A stretch of 64,000 nt of DNA, taken from Escherichia coli. Its GTDB lineage: Bacteria > Pseudomonadota > Gammaproteobacteria > Enterobacterales > Enterobacteriaceae. The stretch lies in NCBI RefSeq assembly GCF_044647545.1, contig NZ_CP172818.1. One strand, written 5' to 3'. Positions within the stretch are counted from its first letter, which is position 1, and each line of letters begins with the position of its first letter. A model generated the notes under the pieces. It ran no database searches. It was not told the DNA's origin and worked only from the letters and a program-made list of their open reading frames with translations. This document shows, one piece after another, positions 3,604 through 56,823 of this stretch. The position numbers and the translations under genes are program-made.

Positions 3604-4533
3604 ATGGAACGACTAAAACGCATGTCGGTGTTTGCCAAAGTAGTTGAATTTGGCTCTTTTACCGCCGCCGCCAGACAGCTACAGATGAGCGTTTCGTCCA
3701 TCAGTCAGACGGTGTCAAAACTGGAAGATGAGTTGCAGGTAAAGCTGTTAAACCGTAGCACACGCAGCATTGGCCTGACCGAAGCCGGTAGAATTTACTA
3801 CCAGGGCTGCCGTCGGATGCTCCATGAAGTGCAGGATGTTCATGAGCAACTGTATGCCTTCAATAACACCCCCATCGGGACGCTGCGCATTGGCTGTTCT
3901 TCAACTATGGCACAAAATGTTCTCGCCGGGCTGACAGCAAAAATGCTGAAAGAATACCCAGGTTTGAGCGTCAATCTGGTTACCGGAATTCCTGCCCCCG
4001 ACCTGATTGCCGATGGTCTGGATGTGGTGATCCGCGTCGGCGCGTTGCAGGATTCCAGCCTGTTTTCCCGCCGTCTGGGCGCGATGCCGATGGTGGTGTG
4101 CGCCGCGAAAAGCTATCTCACACAATACGGCATACCGGAAAAACCCGCCGATTTGAGTAGTCATTCATGGCTTGAATACAGCGTGCGGCCCGACAATGAA
4201 TTTGAACTGATCGCACCGGAAGGGATCTCGACTCGCCTGATCCCACAAGGAAGATTTGTGACTAATGATCCGATGACGCTGGTGCGCTGGCTGACGGCGG
4301 GTGCCGGGATCGCCTACGTGCCGCTGATGTGGGTGATCAACGAGATCAATCGTGGGGAGCTGGAGATCCTGCTGCCGCGTTATCAGTCAGATCCACGCCC
4401 GGTTTATGCGTTATATACCGAAAAAGATAAGCTGCCGCTGAAGGTACAAGTCGTGATCAACTCGCTAACGGATTATTTTGTTGAGGTCGGTAAATTGTTT
4501 CAGGAGATGCACGGGCGCGGGAAAGAGAAGTAA
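3604..4533 (+). CDS. aaeR: LysR-family transcriptional activator AaeR
   Basis: 309 aa ORF; N-terminal HTH (FAKVVEFGSFTAAARQLQMSVSSISQTV); divergent from aaeXAB. Confidence 0.9.
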   Translation: MERLKRMSVFAKVVEFGSFTAAARQLQMSVSSISQTVSKLEDELQVKLLNRSTRSIGLTEAGRIYYQGCRRMLHEVQDVHEQLYAFNNTPIGTLRIGCSSTMAQNVLAGLTAKMLKEYPGLSVNLVTGIPAPDLIADGLDVVIRVGALQDSSLFSRRLGAMPMVVCAAKSYLTQYGIPEKPADLSSHSWLEYSVRPDNEFELIAPEGISTRLIPQGRFVTNDPMTLVRWLTAGAGIAYVPLMWVINEINRGELEILLPRYQSDPRPVYALYTEKDKLPLKVQVVINSLTDYFVEVGKLFQEMHGRGKEK

Positions 4534-4570
4534 TTAATATTGTACTGTTACGTAGTACAAACCTGTGCCA

Positions 4571-4622
4571 ACGGGTTCCCCTCCCCCTAACCCCAGAGGG
4601 GCGAGGGGACCGTTCGTACACG
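4571..4622. terminator. GC-rich imperfect palindrome between convergent aaeR and tldD (candidate bidirectional terminator or BoxC-like repeat)
   Basis: cgggttcccctccccct aaccccag aggggcgaggggaccg forms an imperfect stem of about 16 bp. Confidence 0.4.
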
Positions 4623-4660
4623 GAGAAGGATTAATTATCCTTCTGAAAATACTGAAATTA

Positions 4661-6121
<1,461 letters not shown>

Positions 6122-18260: not shown

Positions 18261-18683
18261 CCATTTAGCAAGGATTAATAAGAGAGGGAACTCATTTTGA
18301 AATCATTATTCAATCGGTTAACGGGAAAAGCGGTTAGCCGGACAGCTTTCGTCGAACATCTTGGTCATGAAGTTGTACAACATCATCCAAACTGGAAAGT
18401 CATGATTTCGACTGACCATAAATTGATGCGCATTGATACTCACCAAACGGTAAATCACTCTTGATGATCTACAAATAACAAAAATAATATAAAAAAAACA
18501 TTTAAAAAAAAAAACGCCTCGCTGGATTTTGCCTGGGAAGACTTAACGATGAGTTAATTATCTTGTTTGCTGAAGATGGTAGCGAAACCATGCGCTATCT
18601 GATGCGCTACGAAGTGACCATTGACCGCGAACAAGCCATCAATAATTTGAAGCAAATATTGCCGGAAGTTTCGGCTGAAATCG

Positions 18684-19400
18684 TTGATACAGGCGCAAAC
18701 GCTGGAAAATTTGCCGTTATCTCCCCAGGGGTCTTTAGACCCCCCTCTTGTTCCTTTTACCTTTTCGCCAACCCCCCCCCAAATTTTTATCCCCCCCCCC
18801 AAAAAAAATTTTTTTTCCCCACAAAAAAAACCACCCAAAACCCCACCCATAATAAAAAAAAAAAAAAAAAATTCCCCCCTGCAAGAACCACCCCTCCAAA
18901 AAAAAAAATTTATCCCCCCCAAACTCTCTTTTCCCCGGAAAAAACCCTTCATCAACCCACCCCCCCAGATAAAAAAAATTGGGGATGATGGTAAAAATTC
19001 AAAAACACCAAACGCCTTTCCCCAAAAATTTTTTTTTTTTTTTAGCGAAAAAATCAAAAAACAAAAAAACGCACTGCCGCCTGACAAAACAGTTTACCTT
19101 CTGCAAAATGGGGGGAATAATCTGATTTTATTTGATTACAAATTAACCACTTAAACCTATTTCATACTGAGCATTATCAGTCGGTTGATTTTGCGTGCTT
19201 TAGCATTCACATCTATCCAGACGATGCAGTGAAAATTGGGCAATCCCCAGCAACCGCTGCGTAATGTCGTCTATCTTGTCGCGATCCTGGCATCCCTACA
19301 TTATTTGTGGTCTGTGAAGATTATCTCATTGCAGCCCCTCATCTTCGCAGGGCTGGCTTTACAGCTTTTCACCTTACGTTATAAGAAGTTCCGTCGATGA
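18684..19400 (+). pseudogene. disrupted MsrQ/YedZ-like membrane protein reading frame; in-frame stops at 19152 (TAA) and 19230 (TGA); 5' two-thirds is low-complexity sequence
   Basis: One frame translates ...[101 protein letters not shown], resembling the MsrQ C-terminal half as recalled from memory. Confidence 0.3.
18740..19130. repeat. homopolymer-dominated, G-poor low-complexity tract (probable assembly or sequencing artefact, or synthetic filler)
   Basis: Runs include A18, T16, A12, C10, C9; very few G on the top strand; complexity degrades gradually from both flanks. Confidence 0.8.
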
Positions 19401-21635: not shown

Positions 21636-21651
21636 GACTGCAAAAGCGCTC

Positions 21652-21679
21652 AAAAGGCCGGATTTTCCGGCCTTTTTTA
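21652..21679 (+). terminator. rho-independent terminator after accC
   Basis: aaaaggccggattttccggcctttttt: GC stem followed by a T-run. Confidence 0.8.
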
Positions 21680-21743
21680 TTACTGGGGATTGATATCTAC
21701 ATAAGGTACAATCCTCGTTCTCTTCACCCATCAGGGACAAAAA

Positions 21744-21986
21744 ATGGACACTCGTTTTGTTCAGGCCCATAAAGAGGCGCGCTGGGCGCTGGGGCTGACC
21801 CTTTTGTATCTGGCGGTATGGTTAGTAGCCGCTTACTTACCTGGCGTTACCCCCGGTTTTACCGGCTTTCCACGCTGGTTTGAGATGGCTTGCATCCTGA
21901 CGCCGCTGCTGTTTATTGGACTGTGCTGGGCGATGGTGAAATTTATCTATCGCGATATCCCGCTGGAGGATGACGATGCAGCTTGA
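21744..21986 (+). CDS. yhdT: small inner-membrane protein YhdT
   Basis: 80 aa hydrophobic ORF overlapping the panF start. Confidence 0.8.
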   Translation: MDTRFVQAHKEARWALGLTLLYLAVWLVAAYLPGVTPGFTGFPRWFEMACILTPLLFIGLCWAMVKFIYRDIPLEDDDAA

Positions 21987-40982: not shown

Positions 40983-41084
40983 TCACAACCCGAAGATGTT
41001 TCTTTCGACTCATCATCGTGTTGCGAAAATTTGAGAGACTCACGAACAACTTTCGTTGTTCAGTGTTTCAATTTTCAGCTTGAT

Positions 41085-41102
41085 CCAGATTTTTAAAGAG
41101 CA
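41085..41102 (-). promoter_or_regulatory. spacer boxA antitermination element
   Basis: Reverse complement tgctctttaaaaatctgg lies between the spacer tRNAs and 23S. Confidence 0.6.
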
Positions 41103-41165
41103 AAACTTCGCAGTGAACCTTTGCAGGTACACTCTGAAGTATTTTTTATTTAATCACTACAGAGA

Positions 41166-41241
41166 TGGTGGAGCTATGCGGGATCGAACCGCAGACCTCC
41201 TGCGTGCAAAGCAGGCGCTCTCCCAGCTGAGCTATAGCCCC
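41166..41241 (-). tRNA. alaU: tRNA-Ala (UGC), rrnD spacer
   Basis: Reverse complement GGGGCTATAGCTCAGCTGGGAGAGCGCCTGCTTTGCACGCAGGAGGTCTGCGGTTCGATCCCGCATAGCTCCACCA. Confidence 0.97.
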
Positions 41242-41283
41242 ATAACATGTAGTTAAAACCTCTTCAAATTTGCGGTGCAAATT

Positions 41284-41360
<77 letters not shown>

Positions 41361-41428
41361 GTAGAGGTTTTACTGCTCATTTTCATCAGACAATCTGTGT
41401 GAGCACTGCAAAGTACGCTTCTTTAAGG

Positions 41429-42970
<1,542 letters not shown>

Positions 42971-43295: not shown

Positions 43296-43442
43296 TTTTT
43301 GATCTTTTTTTCTGTTTGTTGTTTTTTCACCCTTTTTGCTGCATTTGCACACAAAACGGTGCTTTTTTGCATACTAAAAGACTTGCACAAGGCCAATAAT
43401 GCACCCAAAGTCATTAGTAAATCATTTATTGTTGAGGTAAGT

Positions 43443-43997
43443 ATGTCTGATGTTTTACGCCCATACCGCGATCTTTTTCCACAAATCGGTCAGCGCGTAA
43501 TGATCGACGATAGTAGTGTAGTGATCGGTGACGTTCGTTTGGCTGATGATGTGGGGATCTGGCCACTCGTTGTGATTCGTGGTGATGTACATTATGTACA
43601 GATTGGAGCACGCACCAATATCCAGGATGGCAGTATGTTGCATGTCACCCATAAGTCCTCATACAACCCAGATGGCAACCCATTAACCATTGGCGAAGAT
43701 GTCACTGTTGGTCATAAGGTGATGCTCCACGGCTGTACCATTGGCAATCGAGTGTTGGTTGGGATGGCATCAATTTTACTTGATGGTGCAATAGTAGAAG
43801 ATGATGTGATGATTGGTGCGGGTAGCCTGGTCCCACAAAATAAACGGCTGAAGAGCGGATATCTGTATCTCGGTAGCCCCGTCAAACAGATCCGCCCGTT
43901 AAGTGATGAAGAGAAGGCTGGGTTACGCTATTCCGCAAATAACTACGTGAAATGGAAGGACGAATATCTGGATCAAGGTAACCAGACCCAACCTTGA
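43443..43997 (+). CDS. yrdA: gamma-carbonic-anhydrase-like hexapeptide-repeat protein YrdA
   Basis: 184 aa from MSDVLRPYRDLFPQIGQRV; the 293 aa track ORF runs back through the rrnD promoter and is not credible. Confidence 0.88.
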   Translation: MSDVLRPYRDLFPQIGQRVMIDDSSVVIGDVRLADDVGIWPLVVIRGDVHYVQIGARTNIQDGSMLHVTHKSSYNPDGNPLTIGEDVTVGHKVMLHGCTIGNRVLVGMASILLDGAIVEDDVMIGAGSLVPQNKRLKSGYLYLGSPVKQIRPLSDEEKAGLRYSANNYVKWKDEYLDQGNQTQP

Positions 43998-44230
43998 TCA
44001 TCTTCACTTTGTTCCTGAATTAAGTTTTCTGCTTCTTCTTCCAGGTCCCAGCGATGCTGACGAAAACTCGCTAACCACTGTTCTGGCGTATCTCCTGCAA
44101 AGCGGTTCGCCAGACTCTCTCCAGTAATAGCGCAAGTGAGCTGCATACCATTTACAAGAGCGGGAAAACAAACGCATTTTTTACTCTCGTTCCACTCTTC
44201 CCTGTCCGGAAACTGGATGGCCTGATTCAC
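43973..44230 (-). CDS. yrdB: small acidic protein YrdB
   Basis: 85 aa ORF; 3' end overlaps the convergent yrdA by 25 bp. Confidence 0.8.
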
Positions 44231-45045
44231 GCGGACAACTCCTCCTGCAATTGCTTTATAACTGGTTCTATGTCAGGCAGAACACCGTGCCAGAGAAGAA
44301 AGGCATGAGCTGCCTGTGCCACCAGCATCCCCAATCCATCCGCATTACGCTTTGAACCTCGCAGCTCACACCATGCCAGAAAAGGTGTTTTTCCTTTCTG
44401 ATAGAACATGTCATAGCAACACATGCCTGAATGAATGAGCGATGCCGGGATCGCGGGAATATCACCACTGATGCCACTGGATGTTGCATTAATAATGAGA
44501 TCGAACTCATGCCCCTCCAGTTCGTCCATACCCAACGCCTGAATACTGCCCGTGTGCGCAAACAATTTAGCCAACTCTTCCGCGCGGGATACCGTCCGAT
44601 TAGTGATTGTCACCGCGCAGTCCAGAGAAAGGAGTGGAAGTAATACACCACGAGACGCCCCACCAGCGCCGATGAGTAGAATACGTAAACCAGGGCGGAT
44701 AAAAGACAGACGTTCCAGATCGCTTAACAAGCCTACGCCATCGGTATTGTCACCCAGCAGGCGTCCATCTTCTAACCGCTTGAGGGTATTAACAGCACCA
44801 GCCAACGCTGCCCGTTCAGTAAGTTCATCAGCTCTGGCAAAGGCCTCTTCTTTAAAAGGCACCGTCACATTCGCTCCTTTACCACCAGCACTAAAGAAAG
44901 CGTTCAGTGTGTTAATGAAATCATTGATAGGTGCCAGCACGCGCCCATAGGGATGTTCAATATTCAATTGCTGAGCAAATTGCTGATGAATGAATGGCGA
45001 TTTGCTGTGGGCTATTGGATTACCAAAAACAGCATAGTTTTCCAT
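44227..45045 (-). CDS. aroE: shikimate dehydrogenase
   Basis: 272 aa from the [20 protein letters not shown] internal Met. Confidence 0.93.
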
Positions 45046-52230: not shown

Positions 52231-52641
52231 ATGAGCATTATTAAAGAATTTCGCGAATTTGCGATGCGCGGGAACGTGGTGGATTTGGCGGTGGGTGTCA
52301 TTATCGGTGCGGCATTCGGGAAGATTGTATCTTCACTGGTTGCCGATATCATCATGCCACCTCTGGGCTTATTAATTGGCGGGATCGACTTTAAACAGTT
52401 TGCTGTCACGCTACGCGATGCGCAGGGGGATATCCCTGCTGTTGTGATGCATTACGGTGTCTTCATTCAAAACGTCTTTGATTTTCTGATTGTGGCCTTT
52501 GCCATCTTTATGGCGATTAAGCTAATCAACAAACTGAATCGGAAAAAAGAAGAACCAGCAGCCGCACCTGCACCAACTAAAGAAGAAGTATTACTGACAG
52601 AAATTCGTGATTTGCTGAAAGAGCAGAATAACCGCTCTTAA
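52231..52641 (+). CDS. mscL: large-conductance mechanosensitive channel
   Basis: 136 aa; translation matches MscL as recalled. Confidence 0.98.
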
Positions 52642-52856
52642 CAAGCGCCTGAAAGCAGAAGGCCAGTGGTAAAAAAGTGATTTACTTTCTTGCCACTGGC
52701 CTCCCAGTTCCCCCGATTGCCATGTTTTCCTTTTCGCATGTAACTGCCTTTCCCTTTCTTATTTTTCTCTACTCGCTGTCGGAATAAGGGATCATGTAGT
52801 AATGCTTCTATCGCATTATCCTTTATCTGCCCTTTAGTATGCTGATATCGGCTCAT
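52638..52856 (-). CDS. arfA: alternative ribosome-rescue factor ArfA
   Basis: 72 aa ([39 protein letters not shown]...); 3' end overlaps the mscL stop by 4 bp. Confidence 0.9.
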
Positions 52857-56321: not shown

Positions 56322-56687
<366 letters not shown>

Positions 56688-56823
56688 CTACTATTTAATA
56701 TGTACGTTCCATGCTGAAAAGCCCGTTTTCAGGATACTCAAATGGAAACGCACAGACATACAAAAGATTGGCTGGCTAATCTAGCCAGCTCAACCCAACT
56801 TTGCAAGAAAAATATGCGAAAAA

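What the first reader, a model, noticed from the sequence alone, without database searches (positions are those of the whole stretch)
43973..43997. Convergent gene pairs with overlapping 3' ends (yrdA/yrdB and mscL/arfA)
yrdA (+) and yrdB (-) overlap by 25 bp at their 3' ends; mscL (+) and arfA (-) overlap by 4 bp at 52638-52641. Overlapping convergent transcripts produce complementary 3' UTRs, and arfA is known to be regulated through RNase III processing of its 3' region. This is known organisation, noted for completeness.
Basis: established knowledge. Interest (0 to 1): 0.15.

Follow-up and report, generated by a model that had tools for sequence, protein, structure and literature searches.

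The report
Two known convergent gene-end overlaps
Two pairs of E. coli genes that face each other (yrdA/yrdB and mscL/arfA) do share their last 25 and 4 bases, but this is ordinary, already catalogued organisation, and at mscL/arfA the part that matters is a nearby, well-studied RNA hairpin rather than the overlap.

Summary
yrdA (43443-43997, +) and yrdB (43973-44230, -) share 25 bp. mscL (52231-52641, +) and arfA (52638-52856, -) share 4 bp (TTAA). RefSeq annotates the same coordinates in K-12 and in the closest genomes.

**mscL/arfA.** The 4-bp overlap is incidental. The arfA stop codon drifts among close relatives, giving overlaps of 0, 4, 50 and 65 bp. The conserved element is a roughly 50-bp hairpin at 52656-52706, stable on both strands (z about -5). 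On the minus strand it is the published RNase III/terminator hairpin that makes arfA mRNA non-stop. On the plus strand it is the mscL 3' UTR, the target of the arfA-derived antisense RNA (Morra 2023).

**yrdA/yrdB.**
- The overlap is exactly 25 bp in 77 of 80 Enterobacteriaceae species.
- The wobble positions of the two frames coincide.
- YrdA's tail and stop codon are the antisense image of YrdB's conserved C-terminus (QGWxW). All three exceptions follow from YrdB substitutions.
- I found no conserved hairpin, no terminator and no reported dsRNA hot spot.

Both pairs are in the published E. coli "excludome". Verdict: real, already known, low interest.

The parts
43443..43997 (+). yrdA CDS (gamma-carbonic-anhydrase-like hexapeptide-repeat protein, 184 aa)
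   Evidence: ORF; RefSeq annotation; Pfam Hexapep; PDB 3TIO covers residues 2-184.
43973..44230 (-). yrdB CDS (DUF1488, 85 aa, GTG start). It is the last gene of the dprA-smg-yrdD-tsaC-aroE-yrdB string.
   Evidence: ORF; annotation; Pfam DUF1488 covers residues 5-84 of 85. The protein is 85 aa in nearly all Enterobacteriaceae.
43973..43997 (.). 25-bp yrdA/yrdB CDS overlap. It encodes YrdA 177(3rd base)-184 plus stop, and YrdB 78(3rd base)-85 plus stop. Third codon positions of the two frames coincide.
   Evidence: The overlap is exactly 25 bp in 77 of 80 Enterobacteriaceae species genomes. Third-position entropy is 0.76 bit inside the overlap and about 1.29 bit in the flanks.
43971..43999 (.). 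9-bp perfect palindrome arms GATCAAGGT / ACCTTGATC around the overlap. This is specific to this allele and is not a conserved hairpin.
   Evidence: Found. Fold z-scores are -0.46 and -0.17. K-12 and most species carry G at 43976, and K-12 also carries G at 43991, which breaks the arms.
44227..45045 (-). aroE CDS. Its stop overlaps the yrdB start by 4 bp (co-directional coupling).
   Evidence: Annotation; ORF.
52231..52641 (+). mscL CDS (136 aa)
   Evidence: ORF; annotation; Pfam MscL.
52638..52856 (-). arfA CDS as annotated (72 aa). Pfam ArfA covers only residues 4-45.
   Evidence: ORF; annotation; Pfam; PDB 5H5U and truncated constructs of 45-61 aa.
52638..52641 (.). 4-bp TTAA overlap of the mscL and arfA stop codons
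   Evidence: The overlap length among relatives is 0, 4, 50 or 65 bp.
52656..52706 (.). Shared hairpin DNA. On the minus strand it is the arfA intra-ORF RNase III/terminator hairpin. On the plus strand it is the mscL 3'-UTR hairpin. The inverted-repeat arms are 52660-52678 and 52684-52702.
   Evidence: 19-nt arms, 89% complementary. (minimum free energy -37.5 kcal/mol on the minus strand and -30.6 on the plus strand, z -5.2 and -4.9, 0 of 200 shuffles as stable). Conserved in 6 genera with one compensatory pair. Matches the published arfA nt 146-206.
52642..52705 (+). mscL 3' UTR (+1 to +64) as defined in the literature, fully antisense to the arfA 3' coding region
   Evidence: Morra 2023, Fig. 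2A legend, mapped onto the window by me.
52668..52692 (-). Interval between the two published RNase III cut sites in arfA mRNA (nt 165 and 189). Cleavage at nt 165 leaves a 55-codon non-stop mRNA.
   Evidence: Positions from Morra 2023, mapped as window = 52857 minus arfA nt. Not measured here.

Best explanation
Both overlaps are genuine tail-to-tail overlaps of real E. coli genes, of a common and already catalogued kind. They have different causes.

**mscL/arfA.** The unit that works is a roughly 50-bp inverted repeat just inside the 3' part of arfA.
- Transcribed on the arfA strand, it folds into a hairpin. RNase III cuts it, or RNA polymerase terminates at it.
- As a result arfA mRNA lacks a stop codon. 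Its product is destroyed by tmRNA tagging unless trans-translation is saturated.
- Transcribed on the mscL strand, the same DNA is the mscL 3' UTR. The arfA fragments released by RNase III pair with it and shorten mscL mRNA half-life.
- The annotated arfA stop codon is rarely reached. Its position drifts, so the 4-bp overlap is a by-product.

**yrdA/yrdB.** The overlap is a coding arrangement.
- The last eight YrdB codons belong to its conserved DUF1488 domain (..DQGWVWL[SP]).
- The last eight YrdA codons are read from the opposite strand in the frame where wobble positions coincide.
- YrdA's tail (Q-x-x-Q-x-Q-P) and its stop codon are therefore dictated by YrdB's TGA, TGG, TGG, GGN and CAA codons.
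- This fixes the overlap at 25 bp across Enterobacteriaceae.
- Full-length mRNAs of the two genes are necessarily complementary there. No dedicated RNA element or regulatory use is evident.
For: **Shown here**
- Coordinates and annotation.
- The arfA/mscL hairpin is exceptionally stable on both strands. It is conserved in Salmonella, Enterobacter, Cronobacter, Raoultella and an E. coli-like variant, with one compensatory pair, while the sequence 3' of it diverges with indels.
- Annotated ArfA length ranges from 71 to 92 aa. The CDS overlap with mscL is 0, 0, 4, 50, 65 and 65 bp. Pfam ArfA ends at residue 45.
- The yrdA/yrdB overlap is exactly 25 bp in 77 of 80 species genomes. The three exceptions are explained by YrdB codon changes. 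W81Y creates a stop in yrdA two codons early (19 bp, two species). Q79F destroys the yrdA stop (40 bp, one species).
- Third positions coincide and are less variable inside the overlap.
- DUF1488 reaches YrdB residue 84 of 85. Distant gamma-CA structures stop aligning at YrdA residues 169-176, just before the overlap.

**From the literature**
- arfA hairpin at nt 146-206, RNase III cuts at nt 165 and 189, arfA sRNA antisense to the mscL 3' UTR, mscL half-life about doubled in the arfA deletion, and in vitro RNase III cleavage of both RNAs (PMC10070815).
- The non-stop mRNA and tmRNA logic (PMC8012679; PMC5371410).
- Both pairs are in the MG1655 excludome (PMC12288877).
Against: - No transcript-end data could be examined here. 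The extent of RNA overlap at yrdA/yrdB rests on one catalogue entry based on RNA-seq coverage thresholds.
- The exact conservation of 25 bp could also reflect selection on something other than YrdB's C-terminus. Truncating YrdA upstream of the overlap would be mutationally easy, yet none of the 80 genomes shows a yrdA stop upstream of the overlap, so the YrdA tail may not be a pure passenger.
- For mscL/arfA, the nuclease that degrades the sRNA-mscL duplex in vivo is not identified, and RNase III had a net positive effect on mscL mRNA in the published work.
Confidence: 0.88

Rival explanations
1. The yrdA/yrdB overlap is kept because it works as a convergent excludon. Transcription of the tsaC-aroE-yrdB operon and of yrdA would interfere with each other, or form RNase III-sensitive duplexes, making their expression mutually exclusive.
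For: - The pair is in the MG1655 excludome, meaning transcript overlap in at least 50% of 58 RNA-seq samples.
- No intrinsic terminator is predicted on either strand between 43300 and 44400 apart from one chance-level hit inside aroE, so read-through into the partner gene is likely.
- Both read-through RNAs are C-rich and G-poor, as Rho substrates are.
- The convergent arrangement is conserved across Enterobacterales.
Against: - The fixed length is fully accounted for by coding constraint.
- The p19-captured RNase III duplex hot-spot table lists nothing at the overlap (U00096.2 3427788-3427812), although it lists sites in yrdA and aroE on either side.
- Plesiomonas keeps the arrangement with an 11-bp gap.
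- A different antisense RNA inside yrdA had no effect on a yrdA::lacZ fusion when its promoter was mutated (PMC2912661).
- No functional link between YrdA and the operon is known.
Confidence: 0.2
2. RNase III control of arfA works through an intermolecular duplex between the convergent mscL and arfA transcripts created by the overlap, rather than through an intramolecular hairpin.
For: - The mscL 3' UTR (+1 to +64) is perfectly complementary to the arfA 3' coding region.
- arfA transcript rose 2.6-fold in the mscL deletion at high osmolality.
- Full-length arfA expressed from a plasmid in an rnc arfA double mutant raised mscL mRNA, possibly through a heteroduplex.
Against: - arfA RNA alone is cut by RNase III in vitro into the known 24- and 30-nt fragments.
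- The hairpin is very stable on its own.
- The published account attributes cleavage to the arfA stem-loop itself.
- No duplex hot spot at this locus appears in the p19 data.
Confidence: 0.1
3. The 9-bp palindrome centred on the yrdA/yrdB overlap is a bidirectional terminator or a collision-positioning hairpin for the converging RNA polymerases.
For: - A perfect 9-bp inverted repeat with an 11-nt spacer lies exactly on the overlap.
- Stem-loops between convergent genes are reported to position polymerase collisions (bioRxiv 10.1101/2022.10.23.513370).
Against: - The local fold is no more stable than shuffled sequence (z -0.46 and -0.17).
- There is no U-tract.
- The arms are imperfect in K-12 (two mismatches) and in almost all other species.
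- Part of the symmetry is forced by TGA lying opposite CAA on each strand.
Confidence: 0.04
4. One or both overlaps are annotation artefacts, with an over-extended ORF.
For: - Many long convergent overlaps in databases are 3'-extension artefacts (PMC2478687).
- The annotated arfA stop is rarely used in vivo.
Against: - Stop codons are fixed by the sequence, unlike start codons.
- YrdB is 85 aa and YrdA is 184 aa across the family.
- The crystal structure sequence of YrdA runs to residue 184.
- The 72-aa arfA ORF is the accepted gene model.
Confidence: 0.03

Closest known systems
arfA (yhdL) non-stop mRNA control by an intra-ORF RNase III/terminator hairpin and tmRNA (Garza-Sanchez 2011; Chadani 2011; Schaub 2012, as summarised in PMC8012679)
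   Same: It is the same gene. The protein is identical to K-12 ArfA (WP_000092696.1). The hairpin is at the same place (arfA nt about 151-201). Across the 341-bp mscL-arfA stretch compared with K-12 there are four differences, and only one lies in the hairpin (52662 G versus A, synonymous; G-C instead of G-U in the stem).
   Different: Nothing of substance differs. In this allele the stem is fully Watson-Crick at that position on both strands.
arfA-derived antisense sRNA acting on the mscL 3' UTR (Morra et al. 2023, Life Sci Alliance, PMC10070815)
   Same: Same locus and same complementary 64-nt stretch (window 52642-52705).
   Different: That paper places E. coli in its 'proximal' (non-overlapping) class, whereas RefSeq coordinates for K-12 and this window give a 4-bp CDS overlap. 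The difference is probably one of distance convention.
Convergent excludons of E. coli MG1655 (ExcludonFinder, NAR 2025, PMC12288877)
   Same: Both pairs, and also aaeR-tldD from this window, are on the published list of 165.
   Different: The defining behaviour, mutually exclusive expression, has not been shown for yrdA/yrdB specifically. No RNase III duplex hot spot is reported at either overlap.
Conserved convergent overlapping gene pairs in prokaryotes (Rogozin 2002; Palleja 2008, PMC2478687; Huvet and Stumpf 2014, PMC4161906)
   Same: Short tail-to-tail overlap, ascribed in these papers to movement of a stop codon, conserved among related genomes. yrdA/yrdB uses the frame in which the third codon positions of both genes coincide (shown here).
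   Different: yrdA/yrdB stays at the same length across a whole family, and the way each gene's stop is set by the partner's codons can be read directly from three natural exceptions. I did not find that detail described elsewhere.

Membership tests
Convergent (tail-to-tail) overlapping protein-coding genes | Two CDSs on opposite strands whose 3' ends share nucleotides | tested here: met
   The overlap is 25 bp at 43973-43997 and 4 bp at 52638-52641.
Convergent (tail-to-tail) overlapping protein-coding genes | Both ORFs are real genes rather than over-extended predictions | tested here: met
   Pfam hits for all four genes, PDB matches, and conserved lengths for YrdA and YrdB.
Convergent (tail-to-tail) overlapping protein-coding genes | The overlap is conserved in other genomes | tested here: met
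   For yrdA/yrdB the overlap is 25 bp in 77 of 80 Enterobacteriaceae, and 46, 25 and 13 bp or an 11-bp gap in four other Enterobacterales. For mscL/arfA the arrangement is conserved but the overlap length ranges from 0 to 65 bp.
Convergent excludon | Transcripts of the two neighbours overlap | not testable with these tools
   No RNA data were available here. The literature lists both pairs, and the mscL 3' UTR extends 64 nt into arfA.
Convergent excludon | Reciprocal or mutually exclusive expression of the two genes | not testable with these tools
   For mscL/arfA, reciprocal post-transcriptional down-regulation is reported. For yrdA/yrdB there are no data.
Convergent excludon | RNase III-processed double-stranded RNA from the overlap | tested here: inconclusive
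   The supplementary hot-spot table of the p19 capture study has no entry at either overlap. However, thresholds and growth conditions limit what that table would detect, and the stored file is truncated elsewhere.
ArfA non-stop mRNA regulatory module | An ArfA-family protein whose conserved part ends well before the annotated stop | tested here: met
   PF03889 covers residues 4-45 of 72. Ribosome structures use 45-61-aa constructs.
ArfA non-stop mRNA regulatory module | A stable stem-loop inside the 3' part of the ORF | tested here: met
   Minimum free energy is -37.5 kcal/mol with z -5.2. The stem is conserved in 6 genera with one compensatory pair.
ArfA non-stop mRNA regulatory module | RNase III cleavage or premature termination at the stem-loop, and tmRNA tagging of the product | not testable with these tools
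   Literature only.
Bidirectional intrinsic terminator between convergent genes | A G+C-rich hairpin followed by a U-tract on both strands | tested here: not met
   At yrdA/yrdB there is no stable hairpin and no U-tract. At mscL/arfA the hairpin is present. The tail on the arfA strand is moderately U-rich (UUCUGCUUU), but the tail on the mscL strand is CUCCCAGUUCCCCC. The consensus scan did not call the hairpin on either strand.

The most novel reading that the evidence does not exclude
The exactly conserved 25-bp yrdA/yrdB overlap, together with the absence of any terminator on either strand, is a selected site of polymerase collision or antisense control. It would couple yrdA (a gamma-carbonic-anhydrase-like protein) to the tsaC-aroE-yrdB operon. 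It might also stop operon read-through from running through yrdA into the rrnD promoter region, which lies just upstream of yrdA on the same strand as the operon.
Probability: 0.1. Interest if true: 0.35.

Novelty: already known. Interest (0 to 1): 0.1.

Why it matters
It matters little as a discovery. Both overlaps are in standard annotation and in a published catalogue, and the mscL/arfA case has a dedicated mechanistic paper.

Two small points come out of this check.

1. At mscL/arfA the CDS overlap is a labile by-product, and the hairpin shared by both strands is the conserved element.
2. yrdA/yrdB is a clean natural illustration of how one gene's conserved C-terminus can dictate the tail and stop codon of the gene on the other strand, freezing an overlap at one length across a bacterial family.

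Tried and rejected
- **Palindrome as a functional hairpin.** The GATCAAGGT/ACCTTGATC palindrome at the yrdA/yrdB overlap was rejected as a hairpin. Its fold is no better than shuffles and the arms are not conserved.
- **Intrinsic terminators near either overlap.** The consensus scan found only chance-level hits.
- **Rfam families.** None lies at either locus. The window yields only rRNA, tRNA, StyR-44 and the alpha-operon leader.
- **dsRNA evidence.** The p19 supplementary table has no entry at either overlap.
- **ExcludonFinder supplements.** None are held.
- **Garza-Sanchez 2011 (PMC3103599).** Not held, so it is cited only through reviews.
- **Window annotation by colinearity.** I first annotated the whole window by assuming it was colinear with strain FDAARGOS_497. 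That was wrong on the left side, because the window lacks an 8.7-kb island that this strain carries. I corrected it and recounted the convergent pairs.
- **First overlap computation.** My first script mis-scored a few loci because tblastn aligned through stop codons. I redid it from motif anchors.

Full report
**Source and observation.** The window is E. coli chromosome. The yrdA-yrdB-aroE stretch is 100% identical to several complete genomes such as strain FDAARGOS_497, and it is present in 5425 of 5426 complete E. coli genomes. The ORF listing and the raw sequence place the genes as follows.
- yrdA at 43443-43997 (+).
- yrdB at 43973-44230 (-).
- mscL at 52231-52641 (+).
- arfA at 52638-52856 (-).

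RefSeq annotation of the identical stretch gives the same coordinates. K-12 BW25113 and MG1655 show the same 4-bp and 25-bp overlaps.

All four genes are real. Pfam finds Hexapep, DUF1488, ArfA and MscL. PDB holds YrdA itself (3TIO), a YrdB relative (2GPI) and ArfA on the ribosome.

**Is it more than chance?** Convergent CDS overlaps are commonplace. One survey counts 75 in E. coli (PMC4161906), and across prokaryotes about 7% of well-characterised overlaps are convergent (PMC2478687). The window has four convergent CDS pairs.
- aaeR/tldD, 127-bp gap.
- yhdU/acrS, 2-bp gap.
- yrdA/yrdB, 25-bp overlap.
- mscL/arfA, 4-bp overlap.

With roughly one convergent pair in nine overlapping, two of four has a probability near 0.07. 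The denominator behind that ratio is my own estimate. The result is unremarkable.

**mscL/arfA: what is there.**

*Hairpin.* Ten to seventy bases inside arfA from its stop lies an inverted repeat with arms at 52660-52678 and 52684-52702. It folds very stably on both strands. The minimum free energy is -37.5 kcal/mol on the arfA strand and -30.6 kcal/mol on the mscL strand. The z-scores are -5.2 and -4.9, and none of 200 shuffles is as stable. It coincides with the published arfA stem-loop at nt 146-206, whose RNase III cuts are at nt 165 and 189. These map to window 52692 and 52668.

*Published mechanism on the arfA strand.* Cleavage, or premature termination at the hairpin, leaves arfA mRNA without a stop codon. 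Ribosomes stall on it, and tmRNA tags the product for degradation. ArfA therefore accumulates only when trans-translation fails (PMC8012679; PMC5371410).

*Published mechanism on the mscL strand.* The same DNA is the mscL 3' UTR (+1 to +64, window 52642-52705). Morra et al. 2023 report four things.
- The arfA fragment released by RNase III lowers mscL mRNA about twofold.
- mscL mRNA half-life roughly doubles without arfA.
- Only arfA variants that retain nt 160-203 complement the deletion.
- RNase III also cuts the mscL 3' UTR in vitro.

**mscL/arfA: the overlap itself is incidental.**
- Annotated ArfA length varies from 71 to 92 aa among close relatives, including common E. coli alleles.
- In fetched loci, the CDS overlap with mscL is 0 bp in Enterobacter ludwigii and Raoultella terrigena, 50 bp in Cronobacter sakazakii, and 65 bp in Salmonella enterica. 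It is also 65 bp in an E. coli-like allele in which a 1-nt deletion in the hairpin's T-run shifts the frame.
- The hairpin is nearly invariant across these genera, with one compensatory U-A to C-G change. The sequence 3' of it diverges with indels.
- Pfam's ArfA model ends at residue 45, and ribosome structures use 45-61-residue constructs.

The conserved unit is therefore the dual-strand hairpin, not the shared TTAA. The window differs from K-12 by one base in the hairpin (52662). The change is synonymous and turns a G-U pair into G-C.

**yrdA/yrdB: what is there.**

*Conservation of YrdB.* YrdB relatives are 85 aa in essentially all Enterobacteriaceae. They share a conserved C-terminus, EDDQGW[VI]WL[SP]. 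The DUF1488 model reaches residue 84 of 85.

*Conservation of the overlap.* I fetched 80 species-level genomes carrying yrdB. All carry yrdA convergently downstream. The overlap is exactly 25 bp in 77, 19 bp in 2 and 40 bp in 1.

*Frame relationship.* The third codon positions of the two frames coincide. This lets many changes be silent in both genes. Third-position variability is nonetheless lower inside the overlap, at 0.76 bit against about 1.29 bit in the flanks.

*YrdA's tail is the antisense image of YrdB's C-terminus.*
- YrdB's stop TGA and its two TGG (Trp) codons each force a CA on the other strand. This gives YrdA Gln178, Gln181 and Gln183.
- YrdB's Gly80 forces CC, giving YrdA Pro184.
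- YrdB's Gln79, together with the third base of codon 78, forms the yrdA stop.

*The exceptions confirm the coupling.* W81Y in YrdB, found in Kosakonia sp. S29 and Phytobacter diazotrophicus, creates a stop in yrdA two codons early. Q79F, found in Siccibacter turicensis, destroys the yrdA stop and lengthens the overlap to 40 bp.

*Where YrdA's conserved fold ends.* Distant gamma-carbonic-anhydrase structures stop aligning with YrdA at residues 169-176, just before the overlap. The overlap is therefore most simply a short 3' extension of yrdA into yrdB, frozen by YrdB's conservation.

*Outside the family.* The gene string dprA-smg-yrdD-tsaC-aroE-yrdB facing yrdA persists, but the junction varies.

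| Species | yrdA/yrdB junction |
|---|---|
| Pantoea stewartii | 46-bp overlap |
| Rouxiella aceris | 25-bp overlap |
| Edaphovirga cremea | 13-bp overlap |
| Plesiomonas shigelloides | 11-bp gap |

**yrdA/yrdB: is there an RNA element or regulation?**
- A perfect 9-bp palindrome (43971-43979 and 43991-43999) sits on the overlap. The local fold is no better than shuffled sequence. The arms are imperfect in K-12 and in almost every other species. Part of the symmetry is forced by the two stop codons lying opposite Gln codons.
- No intrinsic terminator is predicted on either strand, and no Rfam family matches.
- The untranslated read-through RNAs on both strands are C-rich and G-poor. This is compatible with Rho-dependent termination, but that is inference only.
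- The pair is in the MG1655 excludome, so the transcripts do overlap.
- The p19-captured RNase III duplex table lists no hot spot at the overlap, although it lists sites in yrdA (5' part) and aroE on either side.
- Apart from that catalogue entry, no paper found in these searches deals with the yrdA/yrdB junction.
- An unrelated internal antisense promoter in yrdA was tested and had no effect on yrdA expression (PMC2912661).

I therefore rate a regulatory (excludon) role as possible but unsupported, at about 0.2.

Its statements are right, and it correctly called the finding known. I add three refinements.
- The RNase III site is an intramolecular hairpin within the arfA ORF. It is not a product of the overlap.
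- Most arfA mRNA ends before the overlap.
- A 2023 paper directly links the arfA fragment to mscL control.

**Verdict.** The overlaps are real, correctly described, already known and of low interest. The family-wide 25-bp constancy at yrdA/yrdB, and its codon-level explanation, are a tidy detail rather than a discovery.

Noticed in passing
window 21636-21744 (between accC and yhdT): The window lacks an 8.7-kb sugar-utilisation island that its closest complete genomes (FDAARGOS_497, MS6198, ECONIH1 and others) carry at this site. The island encodes an aldose epimerase, two sugar kinases, an ABC transporter, a tagatose-bisphosphate-family aldolase and a DeoR regulator. The window has only 109 bp there.
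   Followed up: partly
window 18476-19069 (between acuI and accB): This roughly 600-bp stretch does not align cleanly with the otherwise 99.9-100% identical genome, which annotates a hypothetical or DUF1444 protein there. Only a 220-bp piece matches, at 98.6%.
   Followed up: no
window 43535-43596, inside yrdA, minus strand: There is an internal antisense promoter (-10 CATAAT at 43591-43596, start near 43584). It corresponds to a published yrdA antisense RNA and to a p19-captured RNase III duplex hot spot (U00096.2 3427350-3427388). Mutating the promoter did not change a yrdA::lacZ fusion.
   Followed up: partly
window 43400-44300: The yrdA-yrdB-aroE stretch is unusually diverged within E. coli. 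It is only 90-95% identical to 3600 of 5425 genomes, and about 96.6% to K-12 over 43852-44119. The mscL-arfA stretch is at least 98% identical in the genomes sampled.
   Followed up: partly
window 27169-27172 and 4533-4661: There are two further convergent pairs. yhdU/acrS are separated by only 2 bp. aaeR/tldD are separated by 127 bp and are also on the published excludon list.
   Followed up: no
L095:701-979 and proteins P0338, P0341, P0393, P0406: Common E. coli arfA alleles encode 88-92-aa ORFs because of frameshifts in or after the hairpin, for example a T6 to T5 change in the loop-proximal run. This extends the CDS overlap with mscL to about 52-65 bp, apparently without consequence.
   Followed up: partly
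window about 26022-26906 (yhdJ): The adenine methyltransferase gene yhdJ is annotated as a pseudogene with an internal stop in the genome whose sequence is 100% identical to the window over this stretch.
   Followed up: no
literature (PMC10070815) versus window 52638-52641: Morra et al. 2023 classify E. coli mscL/arfA as 'proximal' (non-overlapping), although RefSeq coordinates give a 4-bp overlap. Their distance was measured last nucleotide to last nucleotide, which may explain the difference.
   Followed up: partly
window 37624-42970, minus strand: This is the rrnD-type ribosomal RNA operon, with two 5S genes flanking tRNA-Thr and with tRNA-Ile and tRNA-Ala in the spacer. An Rfam StyR-44 hit lies in the 23S-proximal spacer at 40990-41098. 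An Alpha_RBS leader lies at 56646-56757. All are ordinary features.
   Followed up: no
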